A stretch of 64,000 nucleotides of DNA, from NCBI RefSeq assembly GCF_057098645.1, contig NZ_CM169472.1; one strand, given 5' to 3'. The stretch's first letter is position 1. Each line of letters begins with the position of its first letter. The translations under genes were made by a program, and so were the position numbers. The notes below the pieces were generated by a model. The model made no database searches. It worked only from the letters and a program-made list of their open reading frames with translations, and was not told the DNA's origin. Below, piece after piece: positions 52,114 through 52,800 of the stretch.

Positions 52114-52368
52114 TCGATGAATAAACAATACGAACTGGTTGTAAAATGAATATTTCTAACTGAAAAAACGTTCCATGAGGTGAGAAAAGGTCACAGGCAA
52201 TCAATAACAGGACGTGATGAAAGACCCTTGCATTTGTGCGCTTTCTCTTTAGATAGCAGCAGATACTGAAAATCTGAGTTGTCGGGGAGTCAGGGATACA
52301 GCTGTGCAAGAGTTGGTCATTGTGATTCCATTGAAATCCTGTATGCCATGAAGGGCAGGATTTTATGG

Positions 52369-52683
52369 CTACCTGAGCTTTGGTGATAGTAAGTTGAAAA
52401 TTCGCATTTTTTGCTGACATGCGTAACGAGAATCCCATAAGCAGGGAGGACTTAATTCTTCATTAACCCATGCGTTGATATTATGTTTCAGCCGTTGAAG
52501 CATCAGCGGTGTTAATGTTGTGGTAATAATATCCAGCGTTTTATGTGAGATCTTACCGTAAGGGTCTGCAAGAATGCTGCTTGTTGCTTCGTTATTATCT
52601 GCCATCAGAAGAAGTAACTCTGATTTAACGTTTTCTGTCATTAGTTGTAAAAATCTTCTGCGCAAACTTTCTTTACTGTTCAT
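52369..52683 (-). CDS. hypothetical protein encoded antisense between holin and endolysin
   Basis: 104-codon ORF on the minus strand in an AT-rich segment; no family recognised. Confidence 0.4.
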   Translation of the reverse strand: MNSKESLRRRFLQLMTENVKSELLLLMADNNEATSSILADPYGKISHKTLDIITTTLTPLMLQRLKHNINAWVNEELSPPCLWDSRYACQQKMRIFNLLSPKLR

Positions 52684-52800
52684 TTATATGGCTTCATTTG
52701 TTGTAATCTGCTGCGTCTCAAGGGATATGTTTATGAGAGCGACCATGAGTGTTGGATTATATACCTAACATATCAAGGGATTAGAAATCGATAAATCCCC

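What the first reader, a model, noticed from the sequence alone, without database searches (positions are those of the whole stretch)
52114..52800. Antisense ORF inserted between holin and endolysin
Holin and endolysin genes are normally adjacent in phage-21-type cassettes. Here they are separated by about 690 bp that is conspicuously AT-rich and carries a 104-codon ORF on the opposite strand (52369-52683), with its own upstream region diverging from the endolysin start. The product has no family I recognise. Its transcription would run antisense toward the holin, so it could be a lysis-timing modulator or an independent moron.
Basis: seen in the sequence. Interest (0 to 1): 0.55.

Follow-up and report, generated by a model that had tools for sequence, protein, structure and literature searches.

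The report
Lysogen-expressed antisense gene in lysis cassette
The gap between the prophage's holin and endolysin genes holds a real, separately transcribed gene for a small helical protein of unknown function, next to the wreck of a second gene; it is already annotated in many pathogenic E. coli.

Summary
Holin (51907-52113) and endolysin (52801-53334) are separated by 687 AT-rich bases, with a 104-codon ORF on the opposite strand (52369-52683).

The ORF is a real gene. Relatives of 104-107 residues give dN/dS of about 0.15-0.3. AlphaFold predicts a confident five-helix fold (pLDDT 88.7). Published Cappable-seq data for EDL933, whose sequence is identical here, place a start site at window 52760 in all eight conditions tested.

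It is already annotated as hypothetical (ECs_1097 in Sakai prophage Sp4; PHROG 1853). The insert is at least 99% identical in about 625 of 5,426 complete E. coli genomes. No Pfam, NCBIfam or PADLOC family matches, and no fold relative outside the family was found.

The rest of the gap is a decayed late-strand gene: a 10-codon YdfR-type stub and a degenerate C-terminal remnant. In relatives that gene is intact and lies tail-to-tail with the small gene, but each also occurs without the other.

Related cassettes have other cargo in this slot, or no antisense gene. One puts an unrelated antisense gene behind the same upstream block.

Best reading: a lysogen-expressed moron of unknown biochemical function. 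A role in lysis timing remains untested.

The parts
51907..52113 (+). Class II (phage-21-type) holin, 68 aa. It bounds the slot on the left. This allele lacks the upstream in-frame Met of the dual start seen in relatives (IHQM here, MYQM in L009/L096/L121).
   Evidence: phrog_9876 E 2e-39; phrog_20. RefSeq name 'class II holin family protein'. Relatives.
52114..52800 (.). The whole 687-bp AT-rich spacer, a variable accessory-gene slot of the lysis cassette.
   Evidence: GC 0.355-0.43. At least 99% identical in 621 records, and about 625 of 5,426 complete E. coli genomes hold it. Related cassettes carry different content here.
52118..52150 (+). Ten-codon stub (MNKQYELVVK then stop) of the late-strand YdfR/DUF1327-type gene. 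It starts 4 nt after the holin stop, as the intact gene does in relatives.
   Evidence: tblastn gives 10 of 10 identical to the first 10 residues of the Stx1_14040 263-aa protein, and 8 of 10 to phage YYZ-2008 gp44. The gene starts at the same position in L002/L003/L004.
52190..52321 (+). Degenerate remnant of the conserved C-terminal domain of the late-strand 'partner' gene (phrog_1085 type), with two in-frame stops.
   Evidence: tblastn against the L005 partner, residues 143-186: 36% identity, E 1e-4, two stops in frame. The HMM of the intact domain no longer detects it. The stretch 52140-52375 has no match in the phage collection.
52369..52683 (-). Intact gene for a 104-aa all-helical cytoplasmic protein (ECs_1097; phrog_1853). 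RefSeq WP_000138558.1 starts it 14 codons too late.
   Evidence: N-terminal 14 residues conserved. AF2 pLDDT 88.7, with helix 1 spanning residues 3-26; dN/dS 0.10-0.47; annotated in EDL933 and Sakai.
52684..52760 (-). 77-nt 5' untranslated leader. The main transcription start is the A at 52760; a minor start maps to 52749.
   Evidence: Cappable-seq of EDL933 (PMC10469882, supplementary files 6-8): start at 1272853 (+) in all 8 conditions, mean relative read score 31-72. EDL933 is identical to the window here, and I mapped the coordinates base by base.
52767..52795 (-). Promoter of the small gene: -35 TTTATC (52795-52790), 17-nt spacer, extended -10 TGaTATGTT (52775-52767).
   Evidence: Read from the sequence relative to the published start site. 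The block GATTTATCG..CCCT(T/G)GATATGTTA is conserved in relatives and in front of an unrelated antisense ORF in L096. The consensus scanner did not call it, so promoter assignment rests on the start site.
52801..53334 (+). Endolysin, 177 aa. It bounds the slot on the right.
   Evidence: phrog_7 E 2e-62. RefSeq name 'lysozyme'.

Best explanation
The spacer is an accessory-gene slot inside the late lysis operon of a lambdoid prophage.

It holds one working gene, read against the late operon, which behaves as a moron. It has its own promoter in the 117-bp region in front of the endolysin gene (start at 52760). In the uninduced EDL933 lysogen, which is identical here, it is transcribed in all eight conditions tested. 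It encodes a 104-residue soluble five-helix protein that is kept by purifying selection.

The rest of the spacer is the wreck of a late-strand gene. That gene has a YdfR-type N-terminus and a conserved C-terminal domain. In relatives it is intact and lies tail-to-tail with the small gene, 8-9 bp apart or overlapping by 18-33 nt.

Shown:
- The gene is real.
- It is transcribed independently in lysogens.
- It is dispensable for the cassette.
- The partner gene has decayed here.

Inferred:
- Because it faces the late promoter, it is probably made in the lysogen and suppressed when Q-modified polymerase reads the late operon.
- Its biochemical role is unknown. My best guess, at about 0.25-0.3, is that it counteracts the product or expression of the convergent late gene and survives here as an orphan.
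- Otherwise it may be a lysogen-benefit factor unrelated to lysis.
For: Reality of the gene:
- Homologues of 104-107 aa share the same start.
- dN/dS is 0.17 (window-L006), 0.19 (window-L064), 0.18 (L065-L009) and 0.27 (L004-L005).
- Selection persists inside the partner-less lineage: window against L062 shows 7 synonymous and 4 non-synonymous changes, binomial P=0.003.
- The AF2 model is confident: pLDDT 88.7, pTM 0.78.

Own transcription:
- A published start site is seen in all 8 conditions in EDL933, with relative read score 31-72. This is in the range of the main start sites of several other genes in the same table.
- The EDL933 sequence is identical to the window here.

Moron character:
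- GC is 0.36-0.43 against about 0.52 in the flanks.
- The slot content varies between about 93%-identical holin and endolysin genes: YdfR only (L002), a 263-aa mosaic gene (L003), partner then endolysin with no antisense gene (L121), and partner plus an unrelated antisense ORF behind the same upstream block (L096).

Partner wreck.

Recurrent convergent pairing:
- It is seen from E. coli phage 86 to distant metagenomic relatives with other holin families.
- In L009 the partner is frameshifted while the small gene is intact.
Against: - No function is demonstrated. There is no Pfam, NCBIfam or PADLOC hit.
- I found no direct evidence of translation. The Sakai Ribo-seq supplement I searched lists ECs1098 and ECs1100 but not ECs1097.
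- No intrinsic terminator follows the gene, so it lacks one classical moron feature.
- The Shine-Dalgarno sequence of the window allele is weak (GAAG), although relatives have GAGGA or AAGGA.
- The pairing with the partner is not obligate. In the IMG/VR loci, 35 of 80 partner-anchored loci have no small gene and 48 of 79 small-gene-anchored loci have no partner. This weakens an antidote role.
- The partner structure could not be modelled (pLDDT 54).
Confidence: 0.75

Rival explanations
1. Lysis-timing modulator. Transcription from the small gene's promoter runs antisense through the holin gene. That transcription, or the protein itself, delays or tunes holin and endolysin action.
For: - The gene always sits in or next to a lysis cassette.
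- In the window, no terminator-like site on the - strand lies between its stop at 52369 and the holin gene. The strong hairpin at 51651-51622 lies beyond the holin, so a transcript could cover the holin gene in antisense.
- The promoter is active in all eight conditions tested.
- The linked holin allele lacks the dual-start Met that normally gives an antiholin.
Against: - In the most distant relatives the gene diverges from the holin, so antisense coverage of the holin is not conserved.
- In intact modules the transcript would meet the partner gene, not the holin.
- Purifying selection acts on the protein. The protein has no transmembrane segment and no similarity to holins or antiholins.
- Cassettes with about 93%-identical holin and endolysin genes lack it, in deposited Stx-phage genomes.
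- The transcript's 3' end is unmapped.
Confidence: 0.12
2. Orphan antidote of a two-gene module. The late-strand partner is a harmful late effector, and the small protein, pre-made in the lysogen, neutralises it. Here the effector has decayed and the antidote persists, possibly protecting against partner genes of co-resident or incoming lambdoid phages.
For: - The convergent pairing, tightly packed or overlapping, is kept down to about 35% identity and across three holin families.
- The partner is decayed or frameshifted while the small gene stays intact in the window and in L009.
- The small gene remains under selection after loss of the partner.
Against: - The partner occurs without the small gene in 35 of 80 loci, 33 of them the 185-aa variant followed directly by the endolysin.
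- The convergent arrangement is unlike operonic toxin-antitoxin pairs.
- No defence or toxin-antitoxin model matches.
- No toxicity or binding data exist, and the partner fold is unresolved.
Confidence: 0.25
3. Superinfection-exclusion or anti-phage factor, or another lysogen-benefit gene, unrelated to lysis and merely lodged at a recombination-permissive junction.
For: - Expression was detected in all eight lysogen conditions tested.
- The same upstream block drives an unrelated antisense ORF, phrog_10490, in L096. This suggests a general cargo slot.
- The insert is spread over many Shiga-toxin-producing lineages at 99% or higher identity.
Against: - No PADLOC match.
- The family is narrow: 20 cluster representatives in 1.84 billion proteins, and no hit in species-representative genomes with strict patterns.
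- The repeated linkage to the partner gene and to lysis genes is left unexplained.
Confidence: 0.15
4. Spurious ORF: a chance open frame in AT-rich decayed DNA, transcribed only by a fortuitous promoter.
For: - The region is AT-rich. Two other unconserved ORFs in the gap have been annotated in the past: ECs1098 (52574-52768, + strand) and a 120-aa ORF (52076-52438, - strand).
Against: - Length, start and sequence are conserved down to 21% identity.
- dN/dS is well below 1 in many independent pairs.
- The fold prediction is confident from only 8 sequences.
- Relatives have strong ribosome-binding sites.
Confidence: 0.03

Closest known systems
Lambda bor, and morons in general as defined for HK97/lambda-like phages (from my own knowledge of the literature, not tested here)
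   Same: It is an extra gene lodged among late genes next to the lysis cassette and read against the late operon. It has its own promoter, is expressed from the prophage, differs in base composition from the flanks, and is present in some related phages but absent in others.
   Different: Bor is an outer-membrane lipoprotein with a signal sequence and a known serum-resistance phenotype. This protein is soluble, all-helical and has no known phenotype. No terminator of its own was found. It sits between holin and endolysin rather than after Rz.
YdfR / DUF1327 slot of lambdoid prophages (phage YYZ-2008 gp44; phage 86 gp05)
   Same: The genomic slot is the same, directly after the holin stop. The window keeps the first 10 codons of such a gene. 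In phage 86 the YdfR-domain protein carries the partner C-domain and is followed by a homologue of the small gene.
   Different: YdfR-family genes are on the late strand and match Pfam PF07041. The small ORF is on the other strand and matches no Pfam family. K-12 YdfR has been reported to bind the RNase E catalytic domain and possibly RNA (PMC13232886). Nothing links that to the small protein.
PHROG 1853 (phage 86 orf6/gp06, Sakai ECs_1097, EDL933 'unknown protein encoded within prophage CP-933O')
   Same: The window protein is a member of this family (E 3.5e-47) and is identical to the EDL933 protein annotated as above.
   Different: Nothing differs. The family itself has no assigned function, and RefSeq calls a 90-aa version that truncates helix 1.
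Type II toxin-antitoxin pairs and orphan antitoxin or immunity genes
   Same: A small protein is retained while the neighbouring larger gene decays. The two genes are tightly linked over long divergence.
   Different: The genes are convergent rather than co-transcribed. Each occurs without the other in many loci. There is no match to known toxin, antitoxin or defence models.

Membership tests
PHROG 1853 (uncharacterised phage protein family) | Significant full-length match to the family HMM | tested here: met
   E 3.5e-47, 161 bits, residues 1-102 on profile positions 57-158 of 159. Phage 86 gp06 matches likewise.
Moron (independent accessory transcription unit in a phage genome) | Present or absent between conserved neighbouring genes in related phages | tested here: met
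   Holin and endolysin are about 93% identical in 412 phage records while the middle differs. Slot variants appear.
Moron (independent accessory transcription unit in a phage genome) | Own promoter, active in the lysogen | tested here: met
   Published Cappable-seq start at EDL933 1272853 (+), equal to window 52760 (-), in 8 of 8 conditions with relative read score 31-72. The evidence comes from the literature and was mapped here. The consensus scan alone found no promoter.
Moron (independent accessory transcription unit in a phage genome) | Own transcription terminator | tested here: not met
   No terminator-like site on the - strand lies between the gene's stop at 52369 and the holin gene. 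The first strong hairpin is at 51651-51622, beyond the holin; a weak 5-bp site lies inside the holin at 51939-51925. Rho-dependent termination was not testable.
Moron (independent accessory transcription unit in a phage genome) | Base composition differs from the flanks | tested here: met
   GC 0.355-0.43 against 0.50-0.54.
YdfR family / Pfam DUF1327 (PF07041) | Match to PF07041 | tested here: not met
   The small ORF has no Pfam hit at E<=10. Phage 86 gp05, the late-strand neighbour, matches at 2.3e-44. In the window only a 10-codon stub of such a gene remains.
Type II toxin-antitoxin module | Two co-transcribed genes that co-occur obligately, or a match to known toxin-antitoxin or defence models | tested here: not met
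   The pair is convergent. In the IMG/VR loci, 35 of 80 partner-anchored loci lack the small gene and 48 of 79 small-gene-anchored loci lack the partner. No PADLOC hit for either protein.
Antiholin or holin-like lysis regulators | Membrane protein with transmembrane domain(s), or an alternative product of the holin gene | tested here: not met
   GRAVY is -0.33. The model is five soluble helices with no hydrophobic span. There is no similarity to holin PHROGs.
Cis-antisense regulatory RNA (non-coding) | Function carried by the RNA, with no constraint on an encoded protein | tested here: not met
   dN/dS is 0.1-0.47, with conserved length and start. No Rfam match in 51500-53600. Whether the mRNA also acts as antisense RNA to the holin was not testable.
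Bor-like lysogenic-conversion lipoprotein | Signal peptide with a lipobox | tested here: not met
   The N-terminus MNSKESLRRRFLQL is charged and helical, with no lipobox.

The most novel reading that the evidence does not exclude
The small protein and the convergent late gene form a previously undescribed two-gene module attached to lysis cassettes. A lysogen-made protein, together with its antisense transcript, holds in check a late-expressed effector built on a YdfR-type or coiled-coil scaffold. Orphan copies such as the one in this window would then act in trans on the effectors of the many co-resident lambdoid prophages of Shiga-toxin-producing E. coli, influencing which prophage can complete lysis.
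Probability: 0.15. Interest if true: 0.6.

Novelty: new member of a known kind. Interest (0 to 1): 0.35.

Why it matters
Shiga-toxin release depends on prophage lysis. Any lysogen-expressed gene embedded in the lysis cassette of these prophages is therefore a candidate modifier of induction, lysis or inter-prophage competition.

This gene is widespread in O157, O103, O111, O145 and O121 strains. It was transcribed in all eight conditions tested, and its function has never been studied.

Three practical points follow:
- The RefSeq start is probably 14 codons too late.
- The other ORFs annotated in this gap look spurious.
- The slot in front of the endolysin gene has a conserved outward-facing upstream block with exchangeable cargo, which makes it a useful place to look for further lysogen-expressed genes.

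If the gene has no lysis-related phenotype, it is simply one more uncharacterised moron.

Tried and rejected
- **Family searches.** Pfam, NCBIfam and PADLOC gave nothing for the small protein or its partner. PHROGs gave only 'unknown function' families.
- **Partner structure.** pLDDT was 54, which is unusable, so I ran no fold search on it.
- **Obligate toxin-antitoxin-like pairing.** The co-occurrence counts reject it.
- **Insertion by a mobile element.** There are no flanking direct or inverted repeats.
- **Structured RNA.** No Rfam hit.
- **Consensus promoter scan.** It found no sigma-70 site in 52684-52800. The promoter was identified only through the published start site.
- **Literature.** Searches for WP_000138558, ECs1096, ECs1097, ECs1098, ECs1099 and ECs1100 in main texts found nothing. 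The Sakai Ribo-seq supplement lists ECs1098 and ECs1100 but not ECs1097.
- **ECs1098-like ORF on the late strand.** It is not conserved among relatives, so I treat it as a chance ORF.
- **Constitutive EDL933 start site downstream of the endolysin gene (1272098).** I could not transfer it to the window, because the two sequences diverge after the hairpin at 53425-53457.

Full report
**1. The observation**

The window carries a lambdoid prophage late region:
- a 616-aa SASA-type sialate esterase gene (49764-51614);
- a class II, phage-21-type holin (51907-52113, 68 aa);
- a 687-bp gap (52114-52800);
- an endolysin (52801-53334);
- Rz/Rz1-type spanin genes further on.

GC falls to 0.355-0.43 in the gap, against 0.50-0.54 in the holin and endolysin.

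**2. Is it a gene?**

Yes, on four lines of evidence.
- **Homologues.** The protein has no Pfam or NCBIfam match, but it matches phrog_1853, 'unknown function', at E 3.5e-47. Searches of 5.8 billion proteins and of 1.84 billion representative proteins find a small family of 16 and 20 clusters. Full-length members are 104-107 aa and share the same start, including the first 14 residues.
- **Selection.** Nei-Gojobori dN/dS on independent pairs is 0.17 (window-L006, dS 0.67), 0.19 (window-L064), 0.18 (L065-L009), 0.27 (L004-L005) and at most 0.47.
- **Fold.** AlphaFold2 with only eight sequences gives a confident five-helix model: pLDDT 88.7, pTM 0.78, helices 3-26, 31-39, 47-56, 59-77 and 85-99. 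Helix 1 begins at residue 3. The RefSeq call of 90 aa (WP_000138558.1, start at Met15) therefore cuts into the fold and is probably wrong.
- **Ribosome-binding sites.** Relatives carry strong Shine-Dalgarno sequences (GAGGA, AAGGA) before the long start. The window allele has a weak one (GAAG).

**3. Is it expressed?**

The exact protein is annotated in EDL933 as 'unknown protein encoded within prophage CP-933O'. In Sakai it is ECs_1097 in prophage Sp4.

In EDL933 (NZ_CP008957.1) the gene is EDL933_RS06280, and the sequence from the endolysin start through the ORF start is identical to the window.

The Cappable-seq study of EDL933 (PMC10469882) lists a gene-associated primary start site at 1272853 (+) for this gene. 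It was detected in all eight conditions: LB, minimal medium, malic acid and NaCl, each in exponential and stationary phase. Mean relative read scores were 31-72, in the range of the main start sites of several other genes in the same table.

Mapped base by base, this is the A at window 52760 on the - strand, which gives a 77-nt leader. Upstream lie:
- TATGTT at 52772-52767;
- a TG at 52775-52774, making an extended -10 element;
- TTTATC at 52795-52790, after a 17-nt spacer.

This assignment is my reading of the sequence relative to the published start. A simple consensus scan had not flagged it.

I found no direct evidence of translation. The Sakai Ribo-seq supplement I searched lists ECs1098 and ECs1100 but not ECs1097.

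**4. What else is in the gap?**

Four nucleotides after the holin stop there is an ORF of ten codons, MNKQYELVVK, followed by a stop (52118-52150). It is identical to the first ten residues of the 263-aa protein that occupies the slot in phage Stx1_14040. It is nearly identical to the start of the YdfR-family proteins of phages YYZ-2008 and 86.

Further on, 52190-52321 translates, with two in-frame stops, into a degenerate copy of the conserved C-terminal domain of those larger proteins (36% identity to L005 residues 143-186, E 1e-4).

So about 250 bp of the gap is a pseudogene of a late-strand gene. It is not non-coding spacer, and it is not the small gene's 3' region.

Two other ORFs in the gap have been annotated in the past and are probably chance frames:
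- the 64-aa + strand ORF ECs1098 (52574-52768), which is not conserved among relatives;
- a 120-aa - strand ORF (52076-52438), which has no family match.

**5. Comparative context**

*Spread of the insert.* The insert is at least 99% identical in 621 records, and about 625 of 5,426 complete E. coli genomes hold it, with up to three copies per genome. These include O157:H7, O103:H2, O111:H8, O145:H28 and O121:H19 strains.

*Variation in the slot.* In 412 phage records the holin and endolysin match at about 93% identity but the middle differs:
- YdfR only, in YYZ-2008;
- a 263-aa mosaic protein, in Stx1_14040;
- a partner protein followed directly by the endolysin, in L121;
- partner, then a small DUF1327 ORF, then an unrelated antisense ORF (phrog_10490), in L096.

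*Shared upstream block.* In L096 the upstream block (GGATTTATCGG..CCCTGGATATGTTAAG) and a following hairpin are the same as in front of phage-86-type homologues of the small gene. The endolysin-proximal block therefore behaves as a shared outward-facing promoter region with exchangeable cargo.

*Arrangement in homologues.* Homologues of the small gene are found in phage 86 (gp06), Stx2_12E129 and several E. coli contigs. In all of them the order is holin, then partner, then the small gene on the opposite strand, then endolysin. The two 3' ends lie 8-9 bp apart or overlap by 21 nt.

*Distant relatives.* Members at about 21-35% identity (P0023, P0033) keep the convergent overlap with a partner homologue (33-40% identity). 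They sit upstream of different holin families (PF05106, PF16080) and diverge from the holin rather than from the endolysin.

**6. Is the pair obligate?**

No. I fetched 159 IMG/VR loci with the two protein profiles and scored both genes with HMMs.
- Among small-gene-anchored loci, 21 have both genes intact and 48 have no detectable partner. Almost all of these 48 carry the window allele.
- Among partner-anchored loci, 42 have both genes. Another 33 carry a 185-aa partner variant with no small gene, and 2 carry an intact partner with no small gene.
- In L009 the partner is frameshifted while the small gene is intact.
- Inside the partner-less lineage the small gene still evolves under constraint: 7 synonymous against 4 non-synonymous differences, P=0.003.

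The linkage is therefore ancient and frequent, but each gene can exist alone.

**7. Function**

Nothing identifies a biochemical activity.
- Foldseek against AFDB50 returns only uncharacterised Escherichia, Shigella and Salmonella proteins.
- BFVD and PDB sequence profiles return nothing.
- PADLOC returns nothing.
- The protein is soluble (GRAVY -0.33). Its net charge is not conserved, with pI from 9.3 to 5.0 across the family. I read this as arguing against a generic nucleic-acid-binding role.
- The partner is equally opaque. All homologues are named 'hypothetical', 'YdfR family' or 'DUF1327', and its model is unusable.
- The only functional lead in the neighbourhood is a report that K-12 YdfR binds the RNase E catalytic domain and co-purifies with RNA (PMC13232886). 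This concerns the domain of which the window keeps ten codons.

**8. Most likely mechanism**

Shown:
- The window holds an independently transcribed, selected, dispensable gene that faces the late operon.

Inferred from established lambdoid biology:
- In the lysogen the late operon is silent, and the small gene is transcribed from its own promoter.
- After induction, Q-modified polymerase coming from the late promoter would collide with this transcription and suppress it.
- The protein is therefore most likely a lysogeny-phase product. This is the moron pattern, with lambda bor as the closest analogue in position and orientation (my own knowledge).

Beyond that I give about 0.25-0.3 to a role as antagonist of the convergent late gene. 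This rests on the deep linkage, the overlapping 3' ends and the retention of the small gene after the partner decays.

No terminator-like site lies on the - strand between the gene's stop and the holin gene, and this holin allele lacks the dual-start Met. However, the geometry is not conserved in distant relatives.

I give about 0.15 to an unrelated lysogen-benefit or exclusion function. These readings overlap.

**9. Novelty and verdict**

The ORF is real, but it is already annotated as a hypothetical protein and belongs to a catalogued family of unknown function. As a kind, it is a moron in a known variable slot.

What this analysis adds:
- the corrected start;
- the link to a published start site active in all eight tested conditions;
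- the recognition that the rest of the gap is a decayed partner gene;
- the recurrent but non-obligate convergent pairing;
- the shared upstream block with exchangeable antisense cargo.

Interest is moderate to low (0.35). It would rise if a lysis-related or inter-prophage phenotype were found.

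Noticed in passing
window 51895-51909: The holin allele reads ...[10 protein letters not shown]. Relatives read MYQMEKITT (L009, L096, L121), so the upstream in-frame Met that usually gives the longer antiholin form of phage-21-type holins is missing here (ATA in place of ATG). RefSeq aa here, against 71 aa in phage 86.
   Followed up: partly
window 52574-52768 (+): A 64-aa ORF antisense to the 5' part of the small gene is annotated in Sakai as ECs1098 and classed 'real' in a Ribo-seq study (RNA 24 and ribosome 14 RPKM in LB). It is not conserved in relatives of the small gene, so I read it as a chance ORF. A weak sense-strand start site in EDL933 maps to window 52525 (5 of 8 conditions, relative read score 2-4).
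   Followed up: partly
window 52076-52438 (-): A 120-aa ORF overlaps the 3' end of the small gene and the partner remnant. The overlapping stretch was annotated as a hypothetical gene in the 2017 EDL933 annotation (listed as gene 6285, 1273193-1273537). It has no family match and is probably spurious.
   Followed up: partly
window 53425-53457: A perfect 13-bp-stem hairpin (AAAACCCCGTTTG...CAAACGGGGTTTT), flanked by A and T runs on both sides, sits between the endolysin and the spanin genes. It looks like a bidirectional terminator inside the lysis cassette. In EDL933 a start site detected in all eight conditions lies just beyond it on the opposite strand (1272098), but the window diverges from EDL933 there, so I could not transfer it.
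   Followed up: partly
window 51826-51852 (+); L004, L005, L086, L014, L075 upstream of the small gene: The terminator-like hairpin upstream of the holin (GGCCGTCAGTGGGTGACACTGGCGGCT then a T run) resembles a hairpin (CAGCCCGCCAGTGG..CACTGGCG, then TTTT in L004, L005 and L086) in the leader of the phage-86-type antisense genes, on the antisense strand. That hairpin lies between the upstream block and the ORF. The window allele lacks it. It may be an attenuator or an insulating terminator.
   Followed up: no
L096 4902-5252 (-): An unrelated 116-aa antisense ORF (phrog_10490, unknown function) sits in the same position in front of the endolysin gene. It lies behind the same upstream block and hairpin as the phage-86-type small gene.
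   Followed up: partly
L153 (IMG/VR), and partner proteins in L070 and L158: The late-strand partner family is extremely mosaic. DUF1327 N-domains, coiled coils and unrelated middle segments are joined to one conserved C-domain (GRCMGYLQVAAEIE...NPPFK...PG..YLKGR). In L153 the holin ORF reads through into the partner, giving a 341-aa fusion.
   Followed up: no
window 51622-51651: A strong hairpin with T runs on both strands lies directly after the esterase gene stop. It is the first strong terminator-like site that a transcript of the small gene would meet, about 720 nt past its stop codon and beyond the holin gene.
   Followed up: no
L001, L176, L177 (O157:H7 TW14359, Sakai Sp4, EDL933): In O157:H7 the block holding the holin, small gene, endolysin, spanin and pchA genes is inverted relative to the esterase gene and the terminase genes. 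It is bracketed by IS629/IS1203 and ISEc8, so this lysis cassette is cut off from its late promoter. The small gene's promoter is still active there.
   Followed up: no
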